Shown one piece after another: positions 1,847-61,401 of a stretch of DNA of 64,000 nt; position 1 is the first letter of the stretch, and each line of letters begins with the position of its first letter. The notes beneath the pieces are model-generated. The model saw only the letters and a program-made list of their open reading frames with translations, searched no databases and was not told the origin of the DNA. The stretch is from Methanobacteriota archaeon. GTDB taxonomy: Archaea > Thermoplasmatota > Poseidoniia > Poseidoniales > Thalassarchaeaceae. Location of the stretch: contig WTHQ01000020.1 in assembly GCA_011523055.1 (NCBI GenBank), positions 80,114 to 144,113 on the forward strand, written 5' to 3'. The position numbers and the translations under genes were made by a program.

Positions 1847-1870
1847 GTGCTTTCTATCTATGCAGAGTTC

Positions 1871-5694: not shown

Positions 5695-6291
5695 ATGATC
5701 GACGAGGGCGTCCCAGACTGTCTGATACTTGCATCAGGCCTCAGCAGAAGACTAGGCTACGACAAAGCAACTATCCAATTGGGTGAAACGACACTCTTGT
5801 CAGCCATGATTGAAACCATGAAGGATCATGGAATGAAGACTTGCGTCGTGATTGGTCCGACTTCAGACGAAGCGGGGAGCAGTGACTCTGTGATTTTCGT
5901 CAGAAACGAGAATCCGGATCATGGGAGGACTGGGTCAATACAGGTTGGGTTAGAGGCTCTCGGTTGGCCCGAGAGGGTGATTGTGGCCCCGGTTGACAGA
6001 CCAGGATTTAGCTCAAGGACGCTAAAGAGGCTTTTTTCTGCCGATTCGAGTGCCAGCCCAGAGAAACAGGGCCGAGGGGGCCATCCGGTTTTTTTGGACG
6101 ATGAGGGAGTCATGGCCGTCAGGGATGCTCATCCAGACTCACCGTTGAATTCTCTCATTGACTTTTCCCGCTTCGAGGTCGATGATCCATATTTACACCT
6201 GAATGTGGACACCTCAGAGGACGTCATGTCCTTGAAGATGGCATGGGACGAAATATCAGACTCATGGAAAGTCAACCCCAACCCAGAGTAA
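5695..6291 (+). CDS. MobA/MocA-like molybdenum-cofactor nucleotidyltransferase (likely molybdopterin cytidylyltransferase for an MCD cofactor)
   Basis: N-terminal LILASGLSRRLGYDKA NTP-transferase motif, about 190 aa, sits next to XdhC and an XDH-family enzyme. Confidence 0.6.
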   Translation: MIDEGVPDCLILASGLSRRLGYDKATIQLGETTLLSAMIETMKDHGMKTCVVIGPTSDEAGSSDSVIFVRNENPDHGRTGSIQVGLEALGWPERVIVAPVDRPGFSSRTLKRLFSADSSASPEKQGRGGHPVFLDDEGVMAVRDAHPDSPLNSLIDFSRFEVDDPYLHLNVDTSEDVMSLKMAWDEISDSWKVNPNPE

Positions 6292-34629: not shown

Positions 34630-35240
34630 CAGTCAGGGGCCGCATAGTCTCAATGTCTCATCTCGGAGGTCTATTGGTCAAATTCGATGGAGTTGCGCCG
34701 GGTCTTGGTTGGGAGGTTCGGATCGAGGGAGGGCGAAGCGTCGGAAGGGTTGATTCAGTCATAGGCAGCGTCAACTCAGGCATAATTCACGTTACTCTGT
34801 CGGAGAGCATCGACCCTGCTTCCGCTACGGGTGCGCCCGTTGAAATTACCAGATCGGCCAATCGAAAGGGCCGGGTTCGTGAAAATCGACGAGGTGGCTC
34901 GAAAACTTCCATGGTAAGGCAGGCGAAAAATAGGGGGAAAAGACGAGAACGGTCTGACATGGCCCTTCCAACATGGGTCTGCAAAAAATGTAGAACATTG
35001 AACTCTAAAACCTGGAAGTGCACGAATTGCGGGGAGGGGCGGCCAGAAAGGCAGCGTTCGATTGGAAATCGAAGTTCTGACGGTCCGAAAAGGCCTAGGC
35101 GCCAGCAATCAGGACGACATGGGGGGAGAAGAGCCTCTAAGAGAGAAAGACCCATGTCAGGAGGATCGAAGTCGAAACAGAGATCATTCCCCCCAAGAGT
35201 AAGGGGCAGGGGAAAGCAGGGCAGGAAACCTCCGAGATAG
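34626..35240 (+). CDS. Gar1-like small barrel domain (H/ACA RNP subunit-like) fused to a RanBP2-like C4 zinc finger and an Arg/Gly/Lys-rich tail
   Basis: N-terminal GRIVSMSHLGGLLVKFDGVAPGLGWEVRIEGGRSVGRVDSVIGSVNSGIIHV resembles the archaeal Gar1 pattern (LG.V.H...G.L+V+...P.LG..V.D...+G.V.DV.G.V). Zinc finger WVCKKCRTLNSKTWKCTNCG. Basic tail RRQQSGRHGGRRASKRERP...RVRGRGKQGRKPPR. ATGA overlap with the preceding gene. Confidence 0.45.
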   Translation: MTVRGRIVSMSHLGGLLVKFDGVAPGLGWEVRIEGGRSVGRVDSVIGSVNSGIIHVTLSESIDPASATGAPVEITRSANRKGRVRENRRGGSKTSMVRQAKNRGKRRERSDMALPTWVCKKCRTLNSKTWKCTNCGEGRPERQRSIGNRSSDGPKRPRRQQSGRHGGRRASKRERPMSGGSKSKQRSFPPRVRGRGKQGRKPPR

Positions 35241-39200: not shown

Positions 39201-42200
39201 AGCCAGGCCCGCGTTGCCGTTTACACCATCCCCGTTGGATATGAATCTCCAAGTCAGGGTTACATCGGAGCCCCTCAGTGACGTGCATTCGTCCCTCCAG
39301 AACGCTGGCTCGTCGGATGTCCTGTTCTCCAAGATTATGTGAGTGAGGTCCAAGACCACTGACTTGACGATCTGTTCAGAGTCGAACCATGTGTAGTACC
39401 CTCGGTCTCCAAAGTCGCCAAAGTACTCAGCTTCATCGTAGTTTCCATCGTTGTCGAAGTCTTCGCATGCATGGAATTGGGGGTCCTCGGGGTTGGTCCT
39501 TTGGATGCCATTCTCATTGAGGTCTACCCATGAGCCTTGCACCAGGCCGTTGTATGACTGTCCGTTCTTCGTCCACTCTATGAACAGAGCCGCTTGGTCT
39601 CTAATTGCCTGGATATTCCCAAACTGGTCCACTAGGTAGTCGCCCTCGGCGTAGTAGTCCCAGGACACGTAGGTATAGTCGGAGTCGGTCTGACCGACTC
39701 CGACAGGCCCGACTGACATCGGTTCATTCCAATTGTCTCCATAACCGACATCCGGGTCTCCGAGCCAGTATGCGTAGTTCTTGAAGACCCCTTGGTTTTG
39801 TGGGAGAACCTGGTTTGAGGTGGTCGAATCGTCCAGCCTGCTTCCATTTTCGTTCCCGTCATCTGACCATATCGGGTTGACTCCCGAGAAGTCCTCGATG
39901 GCAGTTAGGTCGGGAAGTGCATTGAATATCTCTGCCTCCGTAGTCCAATTGGTGATGGTGTTGCCGAAGTTCTGTACCCTGATGTCTATCGGGTATTCCG
40001 CCGATGCATAACGAACCCCGGGCTCGAAGTCGATGAATGGATCAGCCGCCAGCCCTGGATCATAGAGGTTCTTGACGGTGGTCTGGAACTTCAAAGCGTC
40101 GTTTATTGGGTCCTGGTCGGTGAAGCCATTGAAGTTGGTCAGAGCGGCGCTGATGTAGTACGTGGTGTCGTCCAAAAAGTCCGCCGAGAGTGTGATCTCC
40201 CTCTCCTCTCCGGCCGCGAGTGGTTGGAAGCTCACCTGCTGGGTGACTGATTGCTCCAATCCGAAGACGGTGTTCCTTTTTCGGATTGTGATGTTGTCGA
40301 ACGCGAATCCGTCTAGGCCCGTGTCGTAGGAGGTGTCCGTTGTCCCGACTGACCCGTAGAGGCCGCTTCTGAATCGGAACCTTAGGTCAATTACCTCTCC
40401 GGCATATGGCGTGAGGTCAATGGACTCTTCAGTGTTCAGGTTCTCATCATCGGTGCCACCCTCTGAGTAGTTGGTCCAATCGGTTATGTATTGGGGGTAA
40501 ATGGCGAAGTTTTTGATTTCCAGCTCGGGGTCTTGGTTCAGTTGTAGGAGGTTGAAGTATCGATCGAGGTCATACCCCCCCTGGAACCAAACGCTTTCCC
40601 ATCCACGGCCCTCTGAGAATGCCTCGATTCCACAGGAGTCCTCGTAGAGCCACCTCTCTTGTACGACGTAGGGTTCCGCTAGGAAGAGGTTCGTGAAGGC
40701 AACGCTGCAAAGTATGGAGACGTCGAGGAACGCAGCGTCGGCTCCAGTGAGGTCAACACCCTGCAGTATGAACGCCTCGTCCATGTTGTTAAAGTACCCT
40801 GAGTTGTTCTCTGCAGTACCGTTGTAGTCGAGCCCTGCCCACATGTAGGTCGTTGGGTTGTGGTCGGCCTCATAGGTCGAGACGTTTTCCGAGGCGGCGG
40901 TGGAATTGGTTTCGGCATGCCAGGATGTCCCTGGAGCGAAGTCAGAGGTGTATGACGCCCCCACCCAATTGCACGCAGAGCAATTCGTGTTGTCGATGTT
41001 GCCATCGAAGTCGTTCGAGTAGACTACCGTGTCGACTCCGCCAGCGACCTCTTTCACCGAGAGGTCGAGGTCTACTGAACCACTGACTGGGTTCAACCCT
41101 GTGTTCATCAGTGTGACATTGACAAATCGTGTCCCCTCGCCGAGTTGGGCGTTTCCAGTCGCAGGATCTGTGGAGGCAGGGGCGATGGTCAAGCCATCGA
41201 TCGCGACGTCCTGATTGTCGAGGGTCAGGACAGATAGGAAATCCCCTGCCCCTGGCCAACCTAGGCTATCCATCCACATGGCGCCACTCCCGAACCGGTA
41301 GGAGTAGTCCCTCTGTCCGATTATGATCTCCTGAGCGGTTGTGTCGTCCCCCTTGAGTTGCGCTGGTTCAGCGACGGTTGGCCTTCTTCCGACATCGAAT
41401 GATATCGGAGATAGGTACCCTGTGCCCTGCCCGTTAGACAGAATGATCTCGACGCTGTTCAATTCTCTCAGATTCTCGACTGTCGTGTATGTCTGGTTCC
41501 TGGAGGATGAGTCCTGTAGTCTCGTTAGCGTCAGCTCCGTGGGTATGAAGAAATCCATGTTGCCATCTCCGTTGACATCGGAGATTGTGATGGAGGCGCC
41601 CTTGTAATTGCCAAGGGCGATATAATTCCTGGTGTCCCAGTTTGAACCCACTGAAGATCGGGTTGCGTAGCTGATTCTGCCTTCGATCCCATCAACTGCT
41701 GCGACCATGTCAACGATGCCATCGTCATCCGTATCCTCCACATCGATCTGCAGTTCGTACCCATGCTCGGCATCTAGGGTGAAGTCGTGGACGGCGGCAG
41801 CGGCGGATCCCCCGACGTTCGGATCAGCATACAGTCCTGTGACGCAATCGAACTCGAGCACTGTCATGTTATCGTAGTTGCCAACGGAGTAGCCGGCACC
41901 TGGATTGAACCTCGGGGTTCTCAGGACCCAGAGATCGAGATCCTCGCACTCACCGGGCAGGGTCTGTCCAGTGAATGGGTCCTGTGCCAAATCCTCGCCC
42001 CACTGGCCTAGTTCTATGTAGCTGTAGTGGCCATAGGTCGGGGCGGGAACCAGGATGGTCTGGTCTGCCTGAGGCCCGGGATCTGGCCCCTTGAAGACCT
42101 CGAGATAGGTCTGGCCGCCATCCGGGGTCATGGTTGCTAGAACGATATCGTCATCCCCATCGTCATCGATGTCGCCGATATCCATCCCTTGGCTGAACGG

Positions 42201-42683
42201 ATGAGAAGGTATCTCGATGATATCGCGGTCCCATTGGTGTGTATTCTTGTTGCACTCCCCCCACATAACCGTTAGGTTGGCGGGCCTGACGAAGGTCTCT
42301 CCAACGAATCTGACGTTCTCTTGGAAGTATACGATGTCTGGCATTTGGTCCCCGTCTATGTCTGCAATCTGGATTTGTTGGCTGTTGGCGGTTTGGAAGA
42401 TGTTTTGACGTTGTGAGTCGCCTACTCCGCCTGCGATGAATATGTCCTGCCTGTCAGGGAAGCCTCCTTGACCGTCATTGAACATTGAAGTGAGGTAGAA
42501 GCCCATGCTGCTGGACGCAACGATGTCATTGTCCCCGTCGCAGTCCAGGTCCCCTGTGTCGACATAGTGTGGGTCCCGCTGGACAGCATACTGCGTGATC
42601 TGTGAGGCACTGGCAGCTGGCACAAGGCTCAGCATGGTCATAGACACCATCATGGTCACAAGGGTGATTGCCTTGAACCTCAT
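36264..42683 (-). CDS. Giant (about 2140 aa) surface adhesin-like protein with FG-GAP/VCBS repeats, signal peptide and C-terminal TM anchor
   Basis: Signal MRFKAITLVTMMVSMTMLSLVPAASAS. Ca-binding FG-GAP-like repeats DLDCDGDNDIV, DIDGDQMPDIV, DIGDIDDDGDDDIV, DVNGDGNMDFF. C-terminal TM GLVIPIVGGLLLILAIAGVTIAM plus cytoplasmic tail. The ORF opens at 42809 but the signal peptide dictates start 42683. Confidence 0.8.
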   Translation of the reverse strand: MRFKAITLVTMMVSMTMLSLVPAASASQITQYAVQRDPHYVDTGDLDCDGDNDIVASSSMGFYLTSMFNDGQGGFPDRQDIFIAGGVGDSQRQNIFQTANSQQIQIADIDGDQMPDIVYFQENVRFVGETFVRPANLTVMWGECNKNTHQWDRDIIEIPSHPFSQGMDIGDIDDDGDDDIVLATMTPDGGQTYLEVFKGPDPGPQADQTILVPAPTYGHYSYIELGQWGEDLAQDPFTGQTLPGECEDLDLWVLRTPRFNPGAGYSVGNYDNMTVLEFDCVTGLYADPNVGGSAAAAVHDFTLDAEHGYELQIDVEDTDDDGIVDMVAAVDGIEGRISYATRSSVGSNWDTRNYIALGNYKGASITISDVNGDGNMDFFIPTELTLTRLQDSSSRNQTYTTVENLRELNSVEIILSNGQGTGYLSPISFDVGRRPTVAEPAQLKGDDTTAQEIIIGQRDYSYRFGSGAMWMDSLGWPGAGDFLSVLTLDNQDVAIDGLTIAPASTDPATGNAQLGEGTRFVNVTLMNTGLNPVSGSVDLDLSVKEVAGGVDTVVYSNDFDGNIDNTNCSACNWVGASYTSDFAPGTSWHAETNSTAASENVSTYEADHNPTTYMWAGLDYNGTAENNSGYFNNMDEAFILQGVDLTGADAAFLDVSILCSVAFTNLFLAEPYVVQERWLYEDSCGIEAFSEGRGWESVWFQGGYDLDRYFNLLQLNQDPELEIKNFAIYPQYITDWTNYSEGGTDDENLNTEESIDLTPYAGEVIDLRFRFRSGLYGSVGTTDTSYDTGLDGFAFDNITIRKRNTVFGLEQSVTQQVSFQPLAAGEEREITLSADFLDDTTYYISAALTNFNGFTDQDPINDALKFQTTVKNLYDPGLAADPFIDFEPGVRYASAEYPIDIRVQNFGNTITNWTTEAEIFNALPDLTAIEDFSGVNPIWSDDGNENGSRLDDSTTSNQVLPQNQGVFKNYAYWLGDPDVGYGDNWNEPMSVGPVGVGQTDSDYTYVSWDYYAEGDYLVDQFGNIQAIRDQAALFIEWTKNGQSYNGLVQGSWVDLNENGIQRTNPEDPQFHACEDFDNDGNYDEAEYFGDFGDRGYYTWFDSEQIVKSVVLDLTHIILENRTSDEPAFWRDECTSLRGSDVTLTWRFISNGDGVNGNAGLAGFAIDNIRFEEFTFEDDGSYSADVTGLDSQQSQIVSLGNHNFDSGLYRIDVRTIFDNNDPAQKWYLAEEVNPSNNFSKVQFSIDSAEITLLQPNVLDCVGDVTYECVYPISSTTAHTFSLPILNGVIEGVYEVTMSIVDTTTGQMVWQATADNGPFDLVPHQRSFANWTLGSNALVGSTGMFNSWEPGRAYNLSWGAQLVSDGSENGNKRYFEITFMDEIDVAILSNPTDQNRLQRVKSDLEAMGMTYTQFRTSEWESYVTEDWTGVYQKVLLPWQTDYNAAYGDYYQKLSEVRASGLSVIDVLDDFMVNGGTLQVHLGPYRNDYVPDNLPFGMDIQERNPANSSIRFDYDDVRVIDRYHPLLGGVDLTALQGVHGGQYVAMSGLDISQVLPNQIPSACGGRISDPLGTFHSLLGSVEYGSQSLLSLCNRGNGGMIVTTMDVENPSFSEPYGGQTMPLLSNMLGYSVTPYPMDFGIAGDTFDLTINGISPSINTVTKAYNTVYIKSNSELQFSYVSDVSDLIADWTLEPGGEGSVTGWNNEIVDPGEFSHVSQTSAEIPTLGSFCVESTLSSTGCFIGAEWLLTLYLHDAEGHTRMTYVRLITNDTLADESDPTASIDLVEDSLTDEFVSEDGTKTVAGTEWDVYRVRQTPTGDITLSFSGAESSDADAPEGESGIQMYSWRVYFDYPVTSQPSLDGHVFDIPATAGGDAFSYTFRNITSDGTLENQIRLELIVYDKAGKSSPKARMYFVVVGEDFGDEPPVVTFSSPKPNDSQTEDRVTISGSVVSGAENSDVRIQVALADALILDLSPTPKATQKQIGKYNETGLLGDGSTFSITLDISDLYSESEGVLSTVYIRVIEGDGLRYTTTTSEDIYLLKRSNDPCVRDPSAAGCDSEGQGIGLVIPIVGGLLLILAIAGVTIAMRGRGKSAISDEIQSFQGVQDLDPVEAYVQQMVGQGYPEDYARQYAKDYYANLNKK

Positions 42684-42784
42684 ATCTCTATTTCTCCTAG
42701 CCTGGGCTGCGCTGCGCATGGCTTGGGGGAGTAGCAATGGTCTCTTATTATTTGCCGCCGGATGGACGTTGAAACGGCCTGACG

Positions 42785-43387
42785 TCAGTCCCTGTAGACC
42801 TGTATCCAAGACGGTGAAGGTGCGTACTCGTCACCAGTATCTGTTAGGATTCTGTCCACCTTCCCTGAAGCCCATAGGCGCTTCAATGCTAGGCTAATCG
42901 CGATTTCGTCGAGCGTTGTTCTCTCAGAAAGCAAGTCAGCCAGACTCTGAGGTGACGTGGACGAGAGACCGTGCTCTGTCACAAGAATGGCCATCACAAG
43001 CCTGAGCCACTCCTCCGTGAGTGGGTCCATCGATATCGAGTCAGGGGGGATCTGTGGCTCTGGCATCTCAGAAATGAAGGTCCTGAGTTCATCCTTATCA
43101 AGGTCCGGGGGGGCCTTGGAATCGAGTTCATCAGTAGGGTCAAACGACCCTATTTCCCTGATCACCGATGGAATTTTCGAGGGATCCGGTGTTGGCCCAG
43201 GGAGAGTATATTGCTCCCCATTTCGCCCCTTTGGAGCTGATGTTCTACTCCCTGATAGTTCCATGAGCCAACCAGATTCAACGTCTAGGCCTATCTGGCC
43301 CGCGAAGTGTTTCACCCAGGCCTCAGGCCCTTCCACTACCGCTGTTATCTCGTAGCTGTCATTCCTAAAGACGAGTCTGGATTTCAA
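42785..43387 (-). CDS. Hypothetical protein, possible winged-helix C-terminal domain
   Basis: 200-aa ORF between aconitase and the giant adhesin. C-terminal SPQSLADLLSERTTLDEIAISLALKRLWASGKVDRIL is wHTH-like. Acidic/Pro-rich linker. Confidence 0.4.
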   Translation of the reverse strand: MKSRLVFRNDSYEITAVVEGPEAWVKHFAGQIGLDVESGWLMELSGSRTSAPKGRNGEQYTLPGPTPDPSKIPSVIREIGSFDPTDELDSKAPPDLDKDELRTFISEMPEPQIPPDSISMDPLTEEWLRLVMAILVTEHGLSSTSPQSLADLLSERTTLDEIAISLALKRLWASGKVDRILTDTGDEYAPSPSWIQVYRD

Positions 43388-53555: not shown

Positions 53556-55061
53556 ATGCAGGGCTACTCCAGTCGCACCCCCAGGGAGCCGCGACTTGCC
53601 TCGAGTGCAGTGATAACAAGGCTAATTGAAGGGGAGGGCAGGATGCTGATGGGCCTTAGGCACCCCGAGGTACCAACATTCCCTGGTTTCTGGGCCTTTC
53701 CAGGCGGTGGTGTCTCACGGCATGACAGGGAATACGCAGAGGGGGAACATTCAGCAGTCAACGAGAAGGATGGTGCTTGGCTAGTCGCCCTATTCAGGGA
53801 GCTGACCGAGGAGACCGGGTTCGCCTTCGGAGCCGATGGGCAATGGGGTTTGGTGAGTGATGACCTGAGAGATGGTCTCTGCAATAAGGGTTTGATCTGG
53901 GCTCATGCGGTTGAACAGGGGTTGTTCAGCGTTGACTTTGGATTGGCCTCACTCGTTACCGAGCGGACCACGCCCCCTCTCGCTCCCGTTCGTTACACCA
54001 ACAGATTCTACCACATTGACTTCGGAAATTTCGCCTTAGAGCCCAAGCAACCCCCAGGGAGGAGTGAATTTACTCGATTCAAGTGGTGGGCCCCTGAAGA
54101 ATTGCTATCTGAGTGGGAAAAGGGGGAGGCGAAGATGGCCCCCCCGCAGGTCACCTTCGTCAGGGACATAATCAAGGGGATGGTCGAGGGAAAGGGTATG
54201 ATCGGATCATTATCCGAGATGTCTGAACTCCCTCCGAGGGGACCCCATAAAATCGAATTTGCACCGGGTGTAGAGTGCCTACCAATACCAACTGCCACAC
54301 TACCCCCAGCTACACACACCAATTGTTTCATTATCGGCAGGGGGGCGGAAGTTTTAGTCGTAGATCCAGCGGTTCAAAACCAAGAGGGCTTTGAAATTCT
54401 CGAGCGAAGATTGTCGGAACTTCGAGAGGACGGGAAGACTTTGCGAGGGGCACTTTACACCCACAGGCACCCTGACCACATAGGTGACCAAACTATGGTT
54501 CGTAGGTTGATAGATCAGCAGATTTTCGGGACTGCTGAAACAATTGAGGAGCTGGGGGCAGGGACCTTGATCAGGGATGGTCAGACCATCGACCTCTCAG
54601 ACGGGCATCCATGGACTGTGATTGAGACCCCTGGACACTGTCCTGGCATGGTCTCGCTTGCCTCAGGGGTTGGCACCATATCCGCTGACAACGTTACCAT
54701 GGTTGGAACGATTCTAGTTCCTTCGAAAGAAGGCTCAATGACTCAATACATGGAAAGTCTTCAGCGTCTGATGGCTATCGATCCAAAGCTGCTTTTTCCA
54801 AGCCATGGCCCTGTTTGCGCTTCGCCAAGGAGGTTGCTTGACAGGACTTACAAACATCGTCAACAACGGCATGAGAAAGTACTTGAAGCGATACAGGAAG
54901 GTAATACAAGGCTTGCAGACATCGCGAAAGAGGCCTACAAAGACGCACCAGATGCCCCAATTATGTTATCGGAAGACCAGACGCTGTCCCACATCATGGG
55001 CTTGATTGAGCAAGGTCTTGTGGCCAAATCAGCCGAGGGTTACCGCCCTACTAATCACTAA
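53556..55061 (+). CDS. Fusion protein: N-terminal NUDIX hydrolase domain plus C-terminal metallo-beta-lactamase-fold hydrolase domain
   Basis: Nudix box GGGVSRHDREYAEGEHSAVNEKDGAWLVALFRELTEETGF (REx2EExG). MBL motifs LYTHRHPDHIGD (HxHxDH), VIETPGHCPGMVS, LLFPSHGP. Confidence 0.7.
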   Translation: MQGYSSRTPREPRLASSAVITRLIEGEGRMLMGLRHPEVPTFPGFWAFPGGGVSRHDREYAEGEHSAVNEKDGAWLVALFRELTEETGFAFGADGQWGLVSDDLRDGLCNKGLIWAHAVEQGLFSVDFGLASLVTERTTPPLAPVRYTNRFYHIDFGNFALEPKQPPGRSEFTRFKWWAPEELLSEWEKGEAKMAPPQVTFVRDIIKGMVEGKGMIGSLSEMSELPPRGPHKIEFAPGVECLPIPTATLPPATHTNCFIIGRGAEVLVVDPAVQNQEGFEILERRLSELREDGKTLRGALYTHRHPDHIGDQTMVRRLIDQQIFGTAETIEELGAGTLIRDGQTIDLSDGHPWTVIETPGHCPGMVSLASGVGTISADNVTMVGTILVPSKEGSMTQYMESLQRLMAIDPKLLFPSHGPVCASPRRLLDRTYKHRQQRHEKVLEAIQEGNTRLADIAKEAYKDAPDAPIMLSEDQTLSHIMGLIEQGLVAKSAEGYRPTNH

Positions 55062-55155: not shown

Positions 55156-56079
55156 ATGTCGACCAAAGGCAATGGCTATCTCCGGATTTCAATTAATCGA
55201 TGTCTGATCACAAATACGGAGGCTAGTGAAATGGACGACCCTTGGAAGTCAATGCCAAACGACCGTGGCTTTGAATCAGAGTCCCGAATGGTGGAAGTTG
55301 AGGATGGATGGCGCCTACGAGTTATCACTTGCAAACCGCTCACCAAGCAAAACAACCCTCCAGTCGTAATGGTCCCGGGTTGGAACAGCGTTTTCGAAGG
55401 CTGGAGGGAAATCATTGAGGCATGGGCACCCTCGAGAATGATTATCTACATCGAGACCAGAGAAAAGGGGAGTGCAGAATCAACCAGGGAGTCGAGTAGG
55501 TCGACAATGTCCATAGGCCAGAGTGTCCAGGACCTCAAGACACTCGCCTCGAAACTACCTGAAATGAGTTCAGAGTGTGATTTTTTCGCCTCCTCGCTGG
55601 GTGCAACCGTACTTCTGGAGGCATTGGCCATGGGGGCTCTCAACGCCAGGAGCGTGTCCTTGTTGGCCCCGAACATAAGCTTCGACTTCCCGTTGTGGAG
55701 TAGGCCCCTCATTGCGATGCCCAGCTTCCTTTATCCTCCGCTCATTCGAGCAGCCATTCTCTACCTAAATCTGAGATTGAAGGATGATGGGCAAAAGATC
55801 CGGTATCGTAGAACGCTGCTCGCTTCCAACGTGAAGCGGCTTCGGCTGAGTGCCCTTTCGAATGGGTCCTACAAAATGAGTGTCGACCTAACCAGAATAA
55901 ATTCCAGAATAGCACTGATCACTGCGGAGTCGGACACGCTCCACGCAGGAAGTGCAGTAGGATTCTTGGCCGAGAAACTACCGAACGCAACTACAATAGA
56001 GGTTCCAAGCAACCAGTTCGCCCACGACAGGGAAATTATTCCGATTTTGGAGGCCTTCCAGGATGATCAGAGGTCCTAG
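55156..56079 (+). CDS. Alpha/beta-fold hydrolase
   Basis: VVMVPGWNSVFEGW plus nucleophile-elbow-like FASSLGATV. 307 aa. Confidence 0.5.
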   Translation: MSTKGNGYLRISINRCLITNTEASEMDDPWKSMPNDRGFESESRMVEVEDGWRLRVITCKPLTKQNNPPVVMVPGWNSVFEGWREIIEAWAPSRMIIYIETREKGSAESTRESSRSTMSIGQSVQDLKTLASKLPEMSSECDFFASSLGATVLLEALAMGALNARSVSLLAPNISFDFPLWSRPLIAMPSFLYPPLIRAAILYLNLRLKDDGQKIRYRRTLLASNVKRLRLSALSNGSYKMSVDLTRINSRIALITAESDTLHAGSAVGFLAEKLPNATTIEVPSNQFAHDREIIPILEAFQDDQRS

Positions 56080-56146
56080 AACCCCCCTTCATCGAAGCAT
56101 CCAGAAGTTGAGATTATACGGTGGCTGCTTCGAAGATCACACAGGC

Positions 56147-59100
56147 ATGAGACACAGCGGGGCGAAACAGGCGGTTTTTCTATCCCTCCTGATTATAATT
56201 ATGGACGCGTCTGCAGGAGCGTCGATTCTCACTGAGGATCTTTCGACACAAGACGATCAATGCGCCTCTTCCGATTGTAGCCCTGATTTCTTTAGCTCAT
56301 TCGAAATGCCCGTGGACGCTAGTGAGCCCGTCGAGGAGCCTGGTTGGTGGCTATCCTATGGCTATGACCACAACTCTGATGGGATGGATGATCGTCTGGA
56401 GAATATAATCAACGGCTCTTCAGAGTCAATCTCCCCAACTTCAGTTTTGGCCCCAGATGGCAGAATGACTGTCGCAATAGTCGTAAACTACGCTTGGCAC
56501 CCCGGAAACTCGGACACAGAGGCATTGAAATCGACCCTGCGAGGACATGGATGGATCTCAGAGGGATCCTTCTTCTTCAACGTGGACATCTTGGATTCGA
56601 TTCTCGTGGACAGAGTCCCAGTGTCAGCTTTGAATGACGTGCTTTCCCTTGATGGAGTGGTTCTGATCGAACAACAGAACGTACTGGAACCTTACCTGGA
56701 TATCGCAACCAAGGCCTCCAAAGTTCGAGTTAGTGATGTCTACCCGCAGTCATTCTGGAGCAATGGATACATGGGGGACGGTGTTGTGATCGCCATCTTG
56801 GATACGGGCGTGGACAACGAACACTTCTCACTGGATGACTTTTCAGACGCCAATCAAGACAATGAAAATGCCCCAAGCGACCTAAATGACCCAAAATGGG
56901 TGGCTGGATGTGACGCGACCTCGAGCAATCAAGTCGAATGCTCTGACGGGAATTTCGATCCTGACGACGGAGATGGCCACGGGACCCACGTGGCCGGGAT
57001 CGCATTGGGGACGGGCGACTCAGACCGCGAAAACATAGGTTATTCCCCTGGTTCATATCTAGTTGACGTTAAGGTCCTGAACGACATTGGGACCACAAAC
57101 TCCGGTGCGACCATCAAGGGAATAAATTGGGTTGCGAACAACGTCGACACCGACTGGGGCAACAATGAATCAAGCAGGGGGATCGATGTCATGTCCATGT
57201 CGTTTGGTTCCATAAATTCCCCCGGAGGCGACGGCCAAGGGGATGATGGGCAGAACGCAGATGCGCGAGCAGTTAACGCCGCAGTGGATGCCGGTGTCGT
57301 TGCTGTGGCGGCTATAGGCAACGACGGGCAAAACAGGGTAACGTCGGTCGGTGCTGCTGACAAGGCGATCACAGTGGGCTCTATTGATGATGATGACTCA
57401 ATCAGCAGGGAGGATGACAGTATAGCCTCCTATTCAAACTACGGTCCTCGAACAGACGATGGAGATAATGACTTCCAAGATGAGTTGAAGCCTGATGTCG
57501 TTGGACCAGGTAGCGGCATAATTTCTGCGGAGTACGCGCCACTAAACCCACTACCAGTTGGGGACCAACCCAGGGCCTCTGATGGCTATACGAGCAAAGA
57601 CGGAACGAGCATGGCCTGCCCTGCAGTCGCTGGCCTGGCAGCCCTCCTCCTCTCCTACGACGGTGACCTCACGCCAGAGGATGTGAAGAATATCATCAAA
57701 GAGACTGCTGAACAAAGGGGGGATGCCAGTGCCCCCTCGATAGACGATAGATGGAACAACCAGTATGGTTACGGCATAGTCGATGGCGAGGCTGCTTTTC
57801 GCTGTGTGATAGGTGGTGAATGCACCCAGATCACAGGCGGGGCAGAATGGGTCCATGTTCAATCCCCGTCAAGGGGGGATTGGTTGGTCCAGGGCAGAAA
57901 CTACTCATTCAGCGGCATACTGAATGAAAGCGACCCTGGTACTTTCGGAATTCAGGCGGTTGAGATAAGCGCAGAACTCAGCTACAAGAAACAGAAGCCG
58001 AATGGAAAGATCGAATCGATTAAGTCAATACTCGTAAACACAACGAACGTAACACTAGTCGAAGGCAGGTGGTCGACCATAGTACCAATTCCTGAGATAG
58101 ACGTTAATGACTACTACGGTGCCGATGTCAAGCTCAAGGCAACGGCCACAAATGAGTCTGGAAGAAGGAGTCAGACCAACGTGAGTTTGCACCCCATCGG
58201 CTTCCTTGACATTGGGATATCCGAGCCAGAGCAGGACTCAACTGCCTCAGGCTCGATGGCGGTCAGAGGATCCTACTCGACTGTCGATGGGGGGGTTATC
58301 AGATGGAAGATCGATGACGGGAGTTGGGTCGATGGGCCCACGCTCTCGGACCAGAATCTCAATCGGAGCGGATATACGGGTGAGTTCCAATTCTCAATTG
58401 ACTCCGAAGAGTACGAGGAGGGCGAGCACGACCTTTTCCTCCAGATTGTGTCCGGCGATGGGTTCCTAAGCCAAGTTGGACGGAGAACGATAGATATTGA
58501 CAACTACCCTCCTCGTCCGAACCTTATTTTGATGGATAGCGTTCAGGTTACCGACTATGGCATTCCGATAAGTGAATCCCGTGTCGGCTCTTACCTCGAG
58601 GTCAGGGGAGAGGTCAGAAACGAGGGAGACATCGGCGCGAATGACATCCTGGTATCACTCTATGAGAATGGACAACGGAGATTCGAGACCTCGATAGAGA
58701 AGATATCCGTAGGTGAACAAGTGCCCTTCATACTGTATTGGAGCCCGTCCATCCCTGGGACCAAGGACGTCAAGGTGGTAATCGACCACTTGAACTCCAT
58801 AGAGGAGCTCGACGAATCCGACAACACGATTTCTCTCGACTTCGAGATTATACCATTGGCAGATGGAGTAGACATCGATGTGTTGGACGGCGGGGTGTTC
58901 ACAACGCCCAGCATACCCACGCCGAGTGATCAGTTCATTCTCAGCACCATGATAAAAAATCAGGGCTCTGAAGACGCCGCCTCCATCGAAGTCACATTTT
59001 ACTCGATGGAGGAAGGTGGCATTGGATGGCTGCCCGTCGCGTCAAGGTCGCTTTCGATGCTCCCCTCCGGCCAGGCCGTGATAATTGAGTTCCCAGTCCC

Positions 59101-60763
59101 CGGTAACGGACCCGGTGTAATGAACTACAGATTCACTGCTTCGGGGCCGGAATTGGCTGACGAAGATTGGTCCAACAACGAGTTAGAGGGTTCCATCGTA
59201 ATCGAAGACTCCCAGGTGAATTCTAGACCAGCCCGAATTGCCCAACCTGAAACGCCACTTGCGGTGATGTCTTTTCGGGAAACTGGCGTAATTCTCGCCT
59301 CAGAGGGAACTCAGATAATCGTTTACAAAATCCAGGAGGATGGGGAAACAGTTCGATGCAGCACCCCTCTCGAAAGATTCTGGAGCGGGTCGATCTCAAC
59401 TACCGTGGATGATGGAGGCTTGGCACACGTTGTTTGGACGCGCAGGCTGGTCACGGGCACAGGGGTATTGAGCGAGACGGTCTCATACGCCACGATAGAC
59501 GACCAATGCTCCTCCACGGTTCCACAAGACCTCATGAATCCACTTCCAATGAATCTGGGGGACTACTTCGGGGTTGACCTAGATGAGGATGACGGGAGGA
59601 TCATCATAGCCGGATATCTCCGTGACATAGCGAGTGGATCACTTTTCGAACCCTCTGAGTCAATTTTCATCCTTGAGGGCAACGAGCCCCAATCAGCAAG
59701 TGAGTGGAGCCTCACCGAGAACGTAATTCAAGGAATTGACACCATGTCTCAAAGTGAAGCGCCAATAGAAGTTGAAATCGGGGATGAGTTGGTTCATCTC
59801 ATCTACATGTCTTCGAGGAACGACACCTCCTCAGTACCTGTCCTCGGCCTGTGGTACGCGCATGGGCTCGAGGGGGCAGGTTCCTGGAATTACAAACGGG
59901 CTATCGCCGTCCAAGGATCTTCGCCCTCAATGGCTGTGACCAATGTGGAGGGGGACGACAGGGTTTCCATCGTTTGGTTCGAAGGCGAGCCAGACAAATC
60001 TACGCTGAATGCAATGATAGTGGATGAGAGCTTCAACATCATCAACGGGGCTTCTGTCTCCATCATGGCACGAGGGGGGGAGTACGCAAAGATCTCTCAG
60101 CGAGGTGACATACTGTTTCTCACATACGACCATGTCACCCCCGTCGGACGCGTGGTAAGCCTGGGCGTGATCGATCCAAACGAGGGGTGGATCGGGATTG
60201 GGAACAGGGTGTCCACGGGGAGTGCCTTCGCTGCCTCTGCCGCTTCGGATGGCTTGGTATTTCCCTTCATGGTCCGAACCACCTCTGGCGATTGGGTCTC
60301 GATTGAAATTTCGAGTAACGGCAATTTGGATGACGGCCCGAGTAATATTTTTGAGAGTGCGAGGATGGCCCTTGGGCTGAACGAGAATGAATTCAACCTG
60401 CTTCTGATGGGGCTCGCAACCGCGCTGTTGATGATTTTGGTCTCCCTCTTGATCGGGACGGTGAGACAAGGGCTCTCTAACATGAGGGACAAAAGAAGGT
60501 CCGCCTCGGTTGTAATTGAGACTGATCCCGAGGATGCGCTGGATATCGATCAAGACGAAGTGGAGGAAGTTTCACCGACTTTAATCTCACCAACACTCGA
60601 GGGGGCGTTTACAGCCGAACCTTTGCCTCCTCCGCCTTTGGATCCGAGCGATCCCTACAGAACTGTGATTTGCGATGCCTGCGGTACGAGGTTCGAGCTG
60701 CTCAGGAAAATTATGAAGACGACGTGCCCATCCTGCGGTGAGCGGGTCGAGGACTTCCGATGA
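56147..60763 (+). CDS. Giant (about 1539 aa) membrane-anchored subtilisin-like serine protease (peptidase S8) with multiple beta-rich accessory domains, a C-terminal TM helix and a cytoplasmic C4 zinc-ribbon tail
   Basis: Signal MRHSGAKQAVFLSLLIIIMDASAGAS. Catalytic triad motifs AILDTGVD, HGTHVAGI, GTSMACPAVAGLAALL. TM LLLMGLATALLMILVSLLIG. Tail CDACGTRFELLRKIMKTTCPSCGERVEDFR. Confidence 0.8.
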   Translation: MRHSGAKQAVFLSLLIIIMDASAGASILTEDLSTQDDQCASSDCSPDFFSSFEMPVDASEPVEEPGWWLSYGYDHNSDGMDDRLENIINGSSESISPTSVLAPDGRMTVAIVVNYAWHPGNSDTEALKSTLRGHGWISEGSFFFNVDILDSILVDRVPVSALNDVLSLDGVVLIEQQNVLEPYLDIATKASKVRVSDVYPQSFWSNGYMGDGVVIAILDTGVDNEHFSLDDFSDANQDNENAPSDLNDPKWVAGCDATSSNQVECSDGNFDPDDGDGHGTHVAGIALGTGDSDRENIGYSPGSYLVDVKVLNDIGTTNSGATIKGINWVANNVDTDWGNNESSRGIDVMSMSFGSINSPGGDGQGDDGQNADARAVNAAVDAGVVAVAAIGNDGQNRVTSVGAADKAITVGSIDDDDSISREDDSIASYSNYGPRTDDGDNDFQDELKPDVVGPGSGIISAEYAPLNPLPVGDQPRASDGYTSKDGTSMACPAVAGLAALLLSYDGDLTPEDVKNIIKETAEQRGDASAPSIDDRWNNQYGYGIVDGEAAFRCVIGGECTQITGGAEWVHVQSPSRGDWLVQGRNYSFSGILNESDPGTFGIQAVEISAELSYKKQKPNGKIESIKSILVNTTNVTLVEGRWSTIVPIPEIDVNDYYGADVKLKATATNESGRRSQTNVSLHPIGFLDIGISEPEQDSTASGSMAVRGSYSTVDGGVIRWKIDDGSWVDGPTLSDQNLNRSGYTGEFQFSIDSEEYEEGEHDLFLQIVSGDGFLSQVGRRTIDIDNYPPRPNLILMDSVQVTDYGIPISESRVGSYLEVRGEVRNEGDIGANDILVSLYENGQRRFETSIEKISVGEQVPFILYWSPSIPGTKDVKVVIDHLNSIEELDESDNTISLDFEIIPLADGVDIDVLDGGVFTTPSIPTPSDQFILSTMIKNQGSEDAASIEVTFYSMEEGGIGWLPVASRSLSMLPSGQAVIIEFPVPGNGPGVMNYRFTASGPELADEDWSNNELEGSIVIEDSQVNSRPARIAQPETPLAVMSFRETGVILASEGTQIIVYKIQEDGETVRCSTPLERFWSGSISTTVDDGGLAHVVWTRRLVTGTGVLSETVSYATIDDQCSSTVPQDLMNPLPMNLGDYFGVDLDEDDGRIIIAGYLRDIASGSLFEPSESIFILEGNEPQSASEWSLTENVIQGIDTMSQSEAPIEVEIGDELVHLIYMSSRNDTSSVPVLGLWYAHGLEGAGSWNYKRAIAVQGSSPSMAVTNVEGDDRVSIVWFEGEPDKSTLNAMIVDESFNIINGASVSIMARGGEYAKISQRGDILFLTYDHVTPVGRVVSLGVIDPNEGWIGIGNRVSTGSAFAASAASDGLVFPFMVRTTSGDWVSIEISSNGNLDDGPSNIFESARMALGLNENEFNLLLMGLATALLMILVSLLIGTVRQGLSNMRDKRRSASVVIETDPEDALDIDQDEVEEVSPTLISPTLEGAFTAEPLPPPPLDPSDPYRTVICDACGTRFELLRKIMKTTCPSCGERVEDFR

Positions 60764-61401
60764 GGGTAATTTTAGCCTCGTCATCCTCCACGAGAAGGAT
60801 CTGGATGTCACAACAGAGTTGGATGGAGGGGCACCAGCTTGAAATCAGATCACTGGCTTATGACGAGTCAGTCCAATCAGTTGAGGGGGACGTGTCTGAC
60901 ACCGTCAGAGAGATCGCGATCGGTAAGGCCGATTTCGCTATACGTGCCCTAGCTGATCACCAAGGTGGTTGGGTTTCAGTAGTCTCTGACACCGTGATTG
61001 AAGACCCAGACACAGGATTGCCAATGGGTAAACCGCGCGACTCGATCGAAGCAGAGAGGATGCTGAGGAGGCTCTCCGGAAGAAGGCACCTTGTTCACAG
61101 TTGCACGGGAGTCATTACACCAAGTAACACGATGGGCAGGGAAATGTTCTCGGATCGATCCCAGGTGCTTTTGGGGCCCTTGTCTGAAGATGACCTCAGT
61201 GTACTGATCGAGACCGAGTCTTGGAGAGGGAAGGCAGGGGGATATGACATCAAGGGGCTGGCACGGAGGCATCTCAAGATCATTGATGGCGATGAGGTCA
61301 CTGTGCTGGGTTTCTCACCCAGAGGCATAGAGAGATTGAAGAGGGCTTTGGCAGAACCGAATAATCCACCATCAGGCGAAAGTGACACCACCGTGTTCTA
61401 G
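60760..61401 (+). CDS. maf: Maf-like nucleoside triphosphate pyrophosphatase
   Basis: MRVILASSSSTRR N-terminus and Maf-family length (213 aa). ATG overlaps the protease stop (ATGA). Confidence 0.65.
   Translation: MRVILASSSSTRRIWMSQQSWMEGHQLEIRSLAYDESVQSVEGDVSDTVREIAIGKADFAIRALADHQGGWVSVVSDTVIEDPDTGLPMGKPRDSIEAERMLRRLSGRRHLVHSCTGVITPSNTMGREMFSDRSQVLLGPLSEDDLSVLIETESWRGKAGGYDIKGLARRHLKIIDGDEVTVLGFSPRGIERLKRALAEPNNPPSGESDTTVF

What the first reader, a model, noticed from the sequence alone, without database searches (positions are those of the whole stretch)
56147..60763. 1539-aa anchored S8 protease with a cytoplasmic zinc-ribbon tail, translationally coupled to maf
A subtilase catalytic domain (D/H/S motifs present) is followed by about 1000 aa of beta-rich accessory domains. 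A single TM helix follows. After the membrane comes a short cytoplasmic tail ending in C-x2-C-x17-C-x2-C. This topology could let an extracellular protease communicate with, or be regulated from, the cytoplasm. The Maf gene start overlaps its stop (ATGA). Three other proteins in the window also carry Zn ribbons on unrelated enzymes (E1 N-extension, Gar1-like, this tail), a recurring accretion.
Basis: seen in the sequence. Interest (0 to 1): 0.5.

Follow-up and report, generated by a model that had tools for sequence, protein, structure and literature searches.

The report
Anchored archaeal protease with zinc-ribbon tail
A very large protein-cutting enzyme on the cell surface of marine group II archaea is held in the membrane by one helix and ends, inside the cell, in a small zinc-binding knob kept by every relative found, so this outside enzyme is probably tied to an inside partner that nobody has yet identified.

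Summary
The gene (56147-60763, 1538 aa) encodes these parts in order:
- a signal peptide;
- a conserved N-terminal region;
- an intact S8A subtilase domain (D219/H278/N392/S488);
- four Ig-like/CARDB domains;
- a seven-bladed beta-propeller;
- one TM helix;
- a 100-aa cytoplasmic tail ending in C-x2-C-x14-C-x2-C (not x17).

The stop overlaps the Maf start (ATGA).

All 153 full-length relatives keep the TM helix and the terminal four-Cys motif. They share 36-77% identity or less. Every one that carries a source name is from Poseidoniales (marine group II archaea). The motif lies 6-8 residues from the C-terminus. The family was found in 143 species genomes.

The best reading is a surface-anchored proteinase. 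Its zinc ribbon sits on a disordered tether and most likely docks a cytoplasmic partner. It is unlikely to transmit a conformational signal.

In nearly all other Poseidoniales a rhomboid protease is encoded directly upstream, and it has its own conserved cytoplasmic zinc-binding-type (Cys3His) domain. In this window's clade that gene is not adjacent, and the tail has lost a basic segment. A rhomboid/substrate pair is therefore the most interesting open reading.

The Maf linkage is positional only. This is a new variant of a known kind.

The parts
56110..56119 (+). TATA-like promoter element (GAGATTATAC), about 33 nt upstream of the start codon
   Evidence: Sequence. The same GRGATTATAC element lies 33-37 nt upstream of the start in 69 of 76 related loci. 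The promoter function is inferred, not shown.
56147..60763 (+). Coding sequence of the anchored S8 protease (1538 aa plus stop)
   Evidence: ORF. Start confirmed by alignment of N-termini. A 100% identical protein, P0001, and 119 full-length relatives were found.
56147..56224 (+). Signal peptide (aa 1-26: basic n-region, hydrophobic core, DASAGAS)
   Evidence: Hydrophobic peak at aa 8-30. The pattern is conserved across the family. Cleavage is inferred.
56324..56746 (+). Conserved N-terminal region (aa 60-200), a probable pro-region; it includes a DxNxDGMDDRL motif
   Evidence: This is one of the better conserved stretches of the protein (mean identity to the query 0.53-0.63, above the whole accessory region; the S8 domain is higher). 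It has no Pfam match even at E 10. The pro-domain role is inferred.
56774..57775 (+). S8A subtilase catalytic domain (aa 210-543); D219, H278, oxyanion N392, S488
   Evidence: Pfam PF00082, E 6e-48. The triad and Asn are invariant. The closest solved relative is Tk-SP 3afg, E 7e-37.
57851..58498 (+). Two Ig-like beta-sandwich domains (aa 569-668 and 678-784)
   Evidence: AlphaFold2 model with pLDDT 87. Foldseek matches arrays of macroglobulin/Ig-like domains.
58523..59200 (+). Two CARDB domains (aa 793-893 and 894-1018)
   Evidence: Pfam PF07705, two stretches, 57.7 bits. Modelled as beta-sandwiches.
59210..60316 (+). Membrane-proximal seven-bladed beta-propeller (aa 1022-1390), with no Pfam family
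60347..60460 (+). Juxtamembrane helix and single TM helix (TM aa 1416-1438); conserved LGL(D/N)ExxFN(I/L)LLxGxA
   Evidence: Kyte-Doolittle 2.78. Modelled as helix 1413-1449. G1410, L1411, F1416 and G1422 are invariant.
60461..60655 (+). Cytoplasmic tether (aa 1439-1503): basic cluster RDKRR, acidic block, proline-rich stretch
   Evidence: pLDDT about 40. Net charge of the whole tail is -8, with 11 Pro. The VxLEEDVVD-type acidic block is conserved.
60656..60760 (+). C-terminal zinc ribbon (aa 1504-1538): C1509-x2-C1512-x14-C1527-P-x-C1530
   Evidence: Four Cys, F1516 and P1528 are invariant. Modelled as two beta-hairpins with pLDDT 81-89. Pfam Zn_ribbon_8, E 5e-7, is below the cut-off. Metal binding was not tested.
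60760..61401 (+). Maf-family nucleotide pyrophosphatase gene; its ATG overlaps the protease stop (ATGA)
   Evidence: Junction. Pfam Maf, E 3e-28. The junction is -1 to +18 nt in 71 of 80 related loci.
55156..56079 (+). Upstream neighbour: alpha/beta-hydrolase-like protein (true start probably M26). It occupies the position held by a rhomboid gene in other Poseidoniales.
   Evidence: No Pfam match. Weak NCBIfam alpha/beta-fold hits. 70% and 63% identical to the upstream ORFs of L004 and L005.

Best explanation
This is the order-wide, syntenic cell-surface subtilase of Poseidoniales, a type I membrane protein.

**Ectodomain.** A Sec-type signal peptide exports about 1390 residues: a conserved N-terminal region, a catalytically competent S8A domain, a stalk of four Ig-like/CARDB domains, and a membrane-proximal seven-bladed propeller. 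One TM helix holds the enzyme on the cell, where it most likely cuts extracellular proteins next to the cell's transporters.

**Tail.** The last 100 residues are cytoplasmic. A basic stop-transfer cluster is followed by an acidic, proline-rich tether and a terminal four-Cys zinc ribbon. Because much of the tether is modelled as disordered, the ribbon is unlikely to relay a conformational signal. It most likely acts as a docking knob that ties the enzyme to a cytoplasm-side partner, for placement, clustering, retention or controlled removal.

**Status of each step.**
- Shown by computation: gene integrity, catalytic residues, domain folds, topology signals, and conservation of the TM helix and ribbon.
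- Inferred: export, surface activity, zinc binding, and the existence and identity of a partner.
For: **Enzyme.**
- S8 domain at 164 bits.
- Invariant D219/H278/N392/S488.
- Closest solved structure is the archaeal subtilase Tk-SP.

**Topology.**
- Conserved signal peptide.
- A single TM helix with charge -3 before it and +3 after it.
- Confident models of the Ig-like/CARDB stalk and of the propeller.

**Tail conservation.**
- 119 of 119 full-length relatives in the first search keep it.
- 153 of 153 do so after adding divergent members. Spacing is x14 in 119 and x15 in 34, and the motif always lies 6-8 residues from the end.
- 79 of 80 species-level genome loci keep it.
- The ribbon is modelled as two hairpins with pLDDT 81-89, behind a stretch with pLDDT about 40.

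**Distribution.**
- A profile of propeller plus TM helix plus tail finds only 126 representatives among 1.84 billion. Nearly all are pieces or full copies of this family.
- 143 species genomes hold it. Titles of the 80 kept name Poseidoniales, Thalassarchaeaceae, Marine Group II or broader archaeal labels.
- Downstream synteny is fixed.
- Published surveys report an extracellular S8 in every MGII genome (PMC6864105).

**Specificity of the ribbon.** Another large surface protein in this window (FG-GAP, 2180 aa) has the same signal peptide plus C-terminal TM layout but a Cys-free tail. The ribbon is therefore specific to this protease and is not a general anchor feature.
Against: - No experiment exists for any member. 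The organisms are uncultured.
- The ribbon scores below the curated cut-offs of every zinc-ribbon family: Pfam 26-30 bits against 34.4, TIGR02605 23 bits against 31.3. It has no significant match to a solved structure.
- No partner has been identified.
- A single-copy, syntenic core gene could equally be a housekeeping maturation protease for the cell envelope rather than a feeding enzyme.
- Conservation of the TM and juxtamembrane residues (G1410, L1411, F1416, G1422) is more than a passive anchor needs. This hints at recognition inside the membrane, which fits the rhomboid rival better.
Confidence: 0.5

Rival explanations
1. Rhomboid-controlled processing. The conserved TM and juxtamembrane segment, together with the zinc-ribbon tail, forms the recognition module for a dedicated rhomboid protease that has its own cytoplasmic zinc-binding-type (Cys3His) domain. 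The rhomboid cuts in or near the TM helix. This sheds or re-anchors the protease, as rhombosortase does for VesB, and leaves a zinc-ribbon stub inside the cell.
For: **Adjacency.**
- A rhomboid gene lies directly upstream on the same strand in 62 of 80 genome loci. Eight further loci lack upstream sequence.
- The same holds in loci L001-L003, L006 and L007.
- It also holds in the most divergent members, where Maf is no longer adjacent.

**The rhomboid.**
- It keeps its catalytic GASGA and AHxxGG motifs.
- It has an invariant C-terminal domain, EGDExETRxAWLE...CPxC-x16-C-x5-H..WP. Standard rhomboid topology places this domain in the cytoplasm.
- Its best NCBIfam match is rhombosortase.

**Specificity.** In about 1.2 Mb of these loci, the only TM proteins with such Cys motifs are this protease and this rhomboid.

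**Co-loss.** The one clade without the adjacent rhomboid, which includes this window, also lacks the second basic segment of the tail (RRxRR) that all other clades keep.

**Precedent.** Rhombosortase processes the C-terminal anchor of the serine protease VesB (PMC3237569, PMC6219818).
Against: - The window has no rhomboid within 56 kb upstream or anywhere else in its 64 kb.
- In this clade a rearrangement breakpoint falls exactly between the two genes, so co-expression is dispensable.
- The whole upstream block (PGI, NMD3, CcmC-like, ABC, rhomboid) is syntenic in the other clades. Adjacency may therefore be plain synteny.
- The protease has its own conserved TATA-like element.
- The rhombosortase score is 38.6 bits against a cut-off of 84, and the tail is not a GlyGly-CTERM signal.
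- The co-loss is a single evolutionary event.
- The Cys-free FG-GAP protein has a TM helix with more helix-breaking residues.
Confidence: 0.2
2. Passive knob. The zinc ribbon has no partner. It is a small, stably folded plug that fixes the C-terminus on the cytoplasmic side and strengthens the anchoring of a very large ectodomain.
For: - The ribbon is tiny and terminal.
- No partner is known.
- The tether varies in length from 101 to 147 residues.
- A C-terminal TM anchor with a cytoplasmic tail is the general layout for surface proteins here.
Against: - The other surface protein manages with a Cys-free tail.
- Beyond the four Cys, F1516, P1528 and an (N)R-x-V and RFE context are conserved over identities down to about 30%. 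That is more than a plug needs.
- The acidic block of the tether is also conserved.
Confidence: 0.15
3. Envelope-maturation enzyme. The protease does not feed the cell. It is a housekeeping enzyme that processes the cell's own surface proteins, and the tail links it to envelope assembly inside the cell.
For: - It occurs at one fixed locus, next to housekeeping genes (Maf, Suf), in 143 species genomes.
- The catalytic region and N-terminal domain are very strongly conserved.
- In related clades a probable operator palindrome lies over the start site, which suggests specific regulation.
Against: - No substrate evidence exists.
- CARDB and Ig-like stalks plus a propeller are typical of substrate-capturing surface hydrolases.
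- Published work interprets MGII S8 enzymes as feeding enzymes, although also without experiments.
Confidence: 0.12
4. Functional unit with Maf. The overlap of stop and start reflects a shared function of the protease and the Maf nucleotide pyrophosphatase.
For: - ATGA overlap in the window.
- The junction is -1 to +18 nt in 71 of 80 loci.
Against: - In divergent members GlmS follows the protease, and Maf lies 2.6 kb away or out of range.
- The whole downstream region (Maf, NifU-like, SufCBD) is simply syntenic.
- No known biochemical link exists between Maf enzymes and surface proteolysis.
Confidence: 0.03

Closest known systems
Archaeal multidomain subtilases of the Tk-SP / pyrolysin type (MEROPS S8A)
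   Same: Same catalytic family and residue order. Tk-SP (PDB 3afg) is the best solved match, E 7e-37. Both have an N-terminal pro-region and C-terminal beta-sandwich domains.
   Different: Those enzymes are secreted or loosely cell-associated. They have no propeller, no TM helix and no cytoplasmic tail. This protein also has a conserved 30-residue insert with a Cys pair between the Asp and the His.
Cell-envelope proteinases of Gram-positive bacteria (lactocepin PrtP, C5a peptidase)
   Same: It works like them: a very large S8 enzyme on a stalk of Ig/Fn-like domains, fixed to the cell surface to cut external proteins for uptake.
   Different: They are anchored to the wall by LPXTG/sortase or S-layer-type domains, not by a TM helix. 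Nothing of them reaches the cytoplasm. This comparison rests on general knowledge. NCBIfam gives only weak S8-level matches.
Mycosins of type VII secretion systems
   Same: Best NCBIfam hit (TIGR03921, E 1e-24). Both are S8 proteases with a signal peptide and a C-terminal TM anchor.
   Different: The score of 87 bits is far below the cut-off of 279. There is no type VII secretion context. Mycosins are about 450 aa, with only a few residues after the TM helix.
Eukaryotic proprotein convertases (furin, kexin; S8B)
   Same: Type I membrane S8 proteases. Their cytoplasmic tail carries acidic clusters and directs where the enzyme goes through cytoplasmic partners.
   Different: They belong to a different subfamily, with a P-domain and DDG/HGTRC motifs, none of which was found here. 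Their tails act in vesicle traffic, which archaea lack, and they have no zinc ribbon.
GlyGly-CTERM proteins and rhombosortase (for example VesB of Vibrio cholerae)
   Same: A surface serine protease whose C-terminal TM anchor is processed by a dedicated rhomboid-family enzyme (PMC3237569, PMC6219818). In related Poseidoniales a rhomboid is encoded next to this gene, and its best NCBIfam match is rhombosortase.
   Different: There is no Gly/Ser-rich motif before the TM helix. The sequence continues for 100 residues after the helix and ends in a zinc ribbon. The rhomboid scores below the rhombosortase cut-off. The pairing is one-to-one rather than many-to-one. The window itself has no rhomboid.
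Small C(P)XCG zinc-finger proteins and zinc-ribbon-plus-TM proteins of archaea and bacteria
   Same: Same type of four-Cys ribbon, with a CPxC knuckle. The weak best PDB matches are small archaeal zinc-ribbon proteins (E 0.07 or more). Such ribbons are known protein or nucleic-acid docking modules (PMC11241148, listed).
   Different: Those are free-standing micro-proteins or N-terminal cytoplasmic domains. Here the ribbon is the C-terminal end of a 1538-aa exported enzyme. One rare unrelated family (P0218: PKD/Ig, TM helix, three ribbons) shares the layout, with only four relatives found.

Membership tests
Peptidase family S8, subfamily S8A (subtilisin type) | Match to the S8 profile above the curated cut-off | tested here: met
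   PF00082 at 164 bits against 21.8, covering profile positions 1-288 of 288.
Peptidase family S8, subfamily S8A (subtilisin type) | Catalytic Asp, His and Ser in that order, in DTG / HGTH / GTSM motifs, plus the oxyanion Asn | tested here: met
   D219 (ILDTG), H278 (GHGTHV), N392 (GNDG) and S488 (GTSMA) are invariant in 39 relatives.
Peptidase family S8, subfamily S8A (subtilisin type) | Proteolytic activity | not testable with these tools
   No member has been expressed or assayed.
Kexin/furin subfamily S8B | P-domain after the catalytic domain, and DDG/HGTRC motifs | tested here: not met
   No P-domain family appears in the Pfam scan at E up to 1. The motifs are of the S8A type.
CARDB domain | Match to PF07705 above the cut-off | tested here: met
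   57.7 bits against 22.7, in two stretches. Modelled as beta-sandwiches.
Zinc ribbon (generic fold) | Two CxxC knuckles on two beta-hairpins, with conserved ligands | tested here: met
   The four Cys are invariant in 153 members. The model shows strands 1504-1508, 1515-1519, 1524-1526 and 1533-1535 with pLDDT 81-89.
Zinc ribbon (generic fold) | Binds one zinc ion | not testable with these tools
   Needs metal analysis of the purified tail.
FmdB / Zn_ribbon_8 family (PF09723, TIGR02605) | Score above the curated cut-off | tested here: not met
   26.2-30.2 bits against 34.4. 23.1 bits against 31.3.
Type VII secretion mycosin (TIGR03921) | Score above the equivalog cut-off | tested here: not met
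   87.3 bits against 278.75.
GlyGly-CTERM sorting signal | Gly/Ser-rich motif, a TM helix, then a short basic cluster at the extreme C-terminus | tested here: not met
   The sequence before the TM helix is ALGLNENEF. 100 residues follow the helix.
GlyGly-CTERM sorting signal | A rhombosortase in the same genome | tested here: inconclusive
   There is no rhomboid in the 64-kb window. The rest of the genome is not available. The neighbouring rhomboid of related clades scores 38.6 bits against 84 for rhombosortase.
Type I (signal peptide plus C-terminal TM) surface protein | N-terminal signal peptide, a single C-terminal TM helix, and positive charge on the cytoplasmic side | tested here: met
   Hydropathy and charge counts. 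Both features are conserved. Dedicated predictors such as SignalP or TMHMM were not available.

The most novel reading that the evidence does not exclude
The protease and the zinc-domain rhomboid encoded next to it in almost all other Poseidoniales form a dedicated one-to-one enzyme/substrate pair. The conserved TM and juxtamembrane segment is the cleavage site. The two cytoplasmic domains, the protease's zinc ribbon (with its basic segment) and the rhomboid's acidic helix with its Cys3His domain, bring the pair together. This would control whether the most abundant planktonic archaea keep or shed their main surface protease. It would also give the first natural substrate of an archaeal rhomboid.
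Probability: 0.2. Interest if true: 0.75.

Novelty: new variant of a known kind. Interest (0 to 1): 0.55.

Why it matters
**Ecological context.** Marine group II archaea are among the most abundant archaea in surface oceans and are thought to live on dissolved and particulate protein. Their extracellular S8 protease is cited in genome surveys as a key feeding enzyme. It has been treated there as a generic 'subtilisin'.

**What this analysis adds.**
- The enzyme is membrane-tethered and built on a defined stalk and propeller.
- It is wired to the cytoplasm by an invariant zinc ribbon.
- This changes how its activity should be modelled: cell-bound rather than free enzyme.
- It also gives a concrete handle, the tail, for finding what controls the enzyme.

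**Link to an open question.** Natural substrates of archaeal rhomboids are still unknown (PMC11985538). The neighbouring zinc-domain rhomboid in related clades turns that question into a specific two-protein experiment.

Tried and rejected
1. **Alternative start at 56063 (1566 aa, as called for P0001).** Rejected. Relatives start at the Met equivalent to 56147. The apparent 'LGLYG/LRLYG' peptide upstream is the translated image of a conserved TATA-like DNA element.

2. **Twin-arginine export.** Rejected. Some relatives have RR in the signal peptide, but the window has KQ and others have none.

3. **The tail as a module shared with other protein families.**
   - A profile search over 1.84 billion representatives found only this family plus generic zinc-ribbon hits.
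   - One hit, P0218 (PKD/Ig, TM helix, three ribbons), was followed up and has only four relatives.

5. **Stalk identity.** Foldseek gives generic arrays of Ig/macroglobulin-like domains.

6. **Pro-domain.** No Inhibitor_I9 or other Pfam match for aa 1-210, even at E 10.

7. **Zinc ribbon against solved structures.** Nothing significant; the best E is 0.07.

8. **Locating the rhomboid elsewhere in the window's genome.**
   - tblastn over the window and over the flanks of L004 and L005 found none.
   - I also tried matching contig lengths of rhomboid homologues to contigs of the window's clade. That failed because only the 120 closest homologues are listed.

9. **Naming the genus of the window's clade from the literature.** Failed.

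10. **AlphaFold database fold search.** Not available on the machine.

Full report
**1. What is in the sequence**

An open reading frame runs from 56063 to 60763 on the + strand.
- Relatives begin at the equivalent Met, with the same signal peptide pattern: basic residues, a hydrophobic core and then (M/L)D(A/V)S(A/V)G.
- A TATA-like element, GAGATTATAC, lies at 56110-56119, 33 nt upstream.
- The same element lies 33-37 nt upstream of the start in 69 of 76 related loci.

The product has 1538 residues and is acidic (15.8% D+E against 6.0% K+R).

Pfam finds Peptidase_S8 at aa 210-543 (E 6e-48), two CARDB stretches, and a sub-threshold zinc ribbon at the very end.

Only two segments are strongly hydrophobic: aa 8-30 and aa 1416-1438. 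The 20 residues before the second segment have net charge -3. The 20 residues after it have net charge +3, with five K/R.

The last four cysteines are C1509, C1512, C1527 and C1530. The motif is therefore C-x2-C-x14-C-x2-C, not x17. Random placement of the protein's 13 Cys yields such a motif in 16 of 200,000 trials.

The TGA stop overlaps the ATG of the next gene (ATGA, 60760-60763). That gene is a Maf-family gene.

**2. Architecture**

The catalytic residues D219, H278 and S488 and the oxyanion N392 lie in S8A-type motifs. They are invariant in 39 diverse relatives. The closest solved relative is the archaeal subtilase Tk-SP (3afg, E 7e-37).

Two AlphaFold2 models built on the family alignment cover the remainder.
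- Residues 545-1019 form four beta-sandwich domains, two Ig-like and two CARDB (mean pLDDT 87). They resemble generic arrays of macroglobulin/Ig-like domains.
- After the propeller come a short helix, the TM helix (1413-1449), about 40 residues with pLDDT near 40, and two beta-hairpins that carry the four Cys (pLDDT 81-89).

Residues 60-200 are more conserved than the accessory domains but match no Pfam family. I read this region as a pro-region by position only.

**3. Conservation and distribution**

The first search returned 119 full-length relatives, 1527-1655 aa long and 36-77% identical. Those that carry names are from Poseidoniales or Thalassarchaeaceae. Every one has a C-terminal TM helix, a tail of 101-147 residues, and CxxC-x14-CPxC 6-8 residues from the end.

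A profile of propeller plus TM helix plus tail was searched over 1.84 billion cluster representatives.
- It found only 126 proteins.
- Nearly all are fragments or full-length members of the same family.
- The more divergent full-length members are also from Poseidoniales.
- They keep the same architecture, with spacing x15.

Across 153 full-length members the spacing between the two Cys pairs is 14 in 119 and 15 in 34; three of these have a CxC first knuckle. F1516 and P1528 are also conserved.

A scan of one genome per species found the family in 143 genomes, and 80 loci were kept. Their titles name Poseidoniales, Thalassarchaeaceae, Marine Group II or broader archaeal labels, and none names another order. 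Of the 80 loci, 79 keep the TM helix and the ribbon; the exception has a broken ORF.

**4. Gene neighbourhood**

Downstream, the order Maf, a NifU-like gene on the other strand, then SufC, SufB and SufD is conserved. The protease-Maf junction is -1 to +18 nt in 71 of 80 loci. In the most divergent members GlmS follows the protease, and Maf is 2.6 kb away or out of range. I therefore treat the Maf overlap as co-transcription within a syntenic block, not as evidence of a shared function.

Upstream, a rhomboid protease gene lies directly before the protease on the same strand.
- It is present in 62 of the 80 loci. Eight further loci end before that point.
- It is also present in the divergent members.
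- The ten loci of the window's own clade (L008-L017) lack it.
- The window has no rhomboid anywhere in its 64 kb.
- The window also lacks the other genes of the upstream block seen elsewhere: PGI, NMD3, a CcmC-like gene and an ABC ATPase.
- In this clade an alpha/beta-hydrolase-like gene takes the upstream position.

**5. The neighbouring rhomboid (not in the window)**

The rhomboid keeps its catalytic motifs. It also has an invariant C-terminal domain, EGDExETRxAWLE...CPxC-x16-C-x5-H..WP. This domain follows the sixth core helix, so standard rhomboid topology places it in the cytoplasm. That placement is an inference.

In about 1.2 Mb of Poseidoniales DNA around these loci, the only TM proteins with such Cys motifs are the protease and this rhomboid.

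Its best NCBIfam match is rhombosortase, at 38.6 bits against a cut-off of 84. Rhombosortase processes the C-terminal anchor of the surface serine protease VesB in Vibrio (PMC3237569, PMC6219818).

The window's clade differs in two ways at once. It has lost rhomboid adjacency, and its tail lacks about 33 residues, including the second basic segment (RRxRR) that all other clades keep. This is one evolutionary event, so it is a lead and not a proof.

Several facts count against a functional pair.
- The whole upstream block is syntenic.
- The protease has its own promoter-like element.
- The genes can be separated.
- The tail does not meet the definition of a GlyGly-CTERM signal.

**6. How it most likely works**

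The signal peptide, the exported-type domains, the single TM helix and the charge distribution together give a type I topology: enzyme outside, tail inside. Four reduced cysteines forming a zinc site also fit the cytoplasm.

The ectodomain resembles the cell-envelope proteinases of Gram-positive bacteria in layout: catalytic head, Ig-like stalk and cell anchor. Genome surveys already regard the MGII S8 enzymes as extracellular feeding proteases (PMC6864105).

The new element is the tail. Its tether is acidic and proline-rich, and a large part of it is modelled as disordered. Mechanical signalling through it is therefore unlikely. A small ribbon on a flexible tether is what one expects of a docking module.

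A second large surface protein in the window (FG-GAP repeats, 2180 aa) has the same signal peptide plus TM layout but a Cys-free tail. The ribbon is therefore specific to this protease.

I commit to the following reading: a surface-anchored proteinase whose zinc ribbon docks a cytoplasm-side partner (confidence 0.5). Rhomboid-controlled shedding or sorting is the main rival (0.2). A partner-less anchoring knob (0.15), an envelope-maturation role (0.12) and a Maf-linked function (0.03) follow.

**7. Comparison with known systems and novelty**

The protein is a member of peptidase family S8A and carries CARDB domains. Both memberships were tested and met.

It is not a mycosin, not a kexin-type convertase, not a curated FmdB-family ribbon and not a GlyGly-CTERM protein. 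Each of these was tested and not met.

I found no paper describing a cytoplasmic zinc ribbon on an exported subtilase. The search covers open-access text only.

One rare, unrelated family shares the layout of ectodomain, TM helix and C-terminal ribbons. It is P0218, with four relatives.

I rate the finding a new variant of a known kind.

**8. Limits**

- No dedicated signal-peptide or TM predictor was available, so topology rests on hydropathy, charge, modelling and conservation.
- Zinc binding, export, activity and any partner are all untested.
- The rest of the window's genome could not be searched.

Noticed in passing
L001:4989-5984, L006:4894-5931, L007:4814-5932, L088:3844-4887, L089:3917-4954 and about 60 further loci (not in the window): A rhomboid protease lies directly upstream of the protease gene in almost all other Poseidoniales. 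It has an invariant C-terminal cytoplasmic domain, EGDExETRxAWLE...CPxC-x16-C-x5-H..WP, which is a probable Cys3His zinc site. Its best NCBIfam match is rhombosortase, below the cut-off.
   Followed up: partly
61 related loci, immediately 5' of the protease ATG (for example L001 about 6033-6051); absent from the window: The palindrome GGCTCT(C/GC/AC)-N3-(G/GC/GT)AGAGCC abuts the start codon. It occurs exactly once per locus and is followed by ATG in 61 of 61 cases. Arm changes keep the symmetry. It lies between the TATA-like element and the ATG, so it is probably an operator over the transcription start.
   Followed up: partly
window 56110-56119 and the equivalent position in 69 of 76 loci: A conserved GGTTGRGATTATAC element lies 33-37 nt upstream of the protease start. 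Gene callers often translate it as a spurious 'LGLYG/LRLYG' N-terminal extension, as in the 1566-aa call for P0001.
   Followed up: yes
window 36264-42809 (-): A 2180-aa protein with FG-GAP repeats, a signal peptide, a C-terminal TM helix (about aa 2102-2125) and a 55-residue Cys-free cytoplasmic tail. It is a second giant type I surface protein.
   Followed up: partly
window 55156-56079 (+): An alpha/beta-hydrolase-like ORF with no Pfam match (true start probably M26). It is the conserved upstream neighbour of the protease in this clade (63-70% identity in L004 and L005). A LemA gene present further upstream in those loci is missing from the window.
   Followed up: partly
window 1847-4678 (+): A fused 2-oxoacid dehydrogenase E1 (E1_dh, Transket_pyr and Transketolase_C domains) with an N-terminal extension carrying CPNC-x19-CTKC.
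   Followed up: partly
window 34626-35237 (+): A 204-aa ORF with a small N-terminal beta-rich part, a W-x-C-x2-C-x9-C-x2-C zinc motif and a very basic tail. It has no Pfam or NCBIfam match. The 'Gar1-like' label could not be confirmed.
   Followed up: partly
window 53556-55061 (+): A fusion of a NUDIX domain and a metallo-beta-lactamase domain in one 501-aa protein. It is conserved at this position in the clade.
   Followed up: no
P0218 (JGI metagenome contig, 534 aa, N-terminally incomplete): An unrelated surface protein with a PKD domain and Ig-like domains, one TM helix and a cytoplasmic tail with three zinc ribbons separated by acidic linkers. Its source annotates it as 'ribosomal protein S27E'. 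Only four relatives were found.
   Followed up: partly
protease aa 39/44, 255/265 and 1071/1121 (window 56261-56278, 56909-56941, 59357-59509): Three conserved Cys pairs in the exported part are probable disulfides. The 255/265 pair sits in a conserved insert of about 30 residues between the catalytic Asp and His.
   Followed up: no
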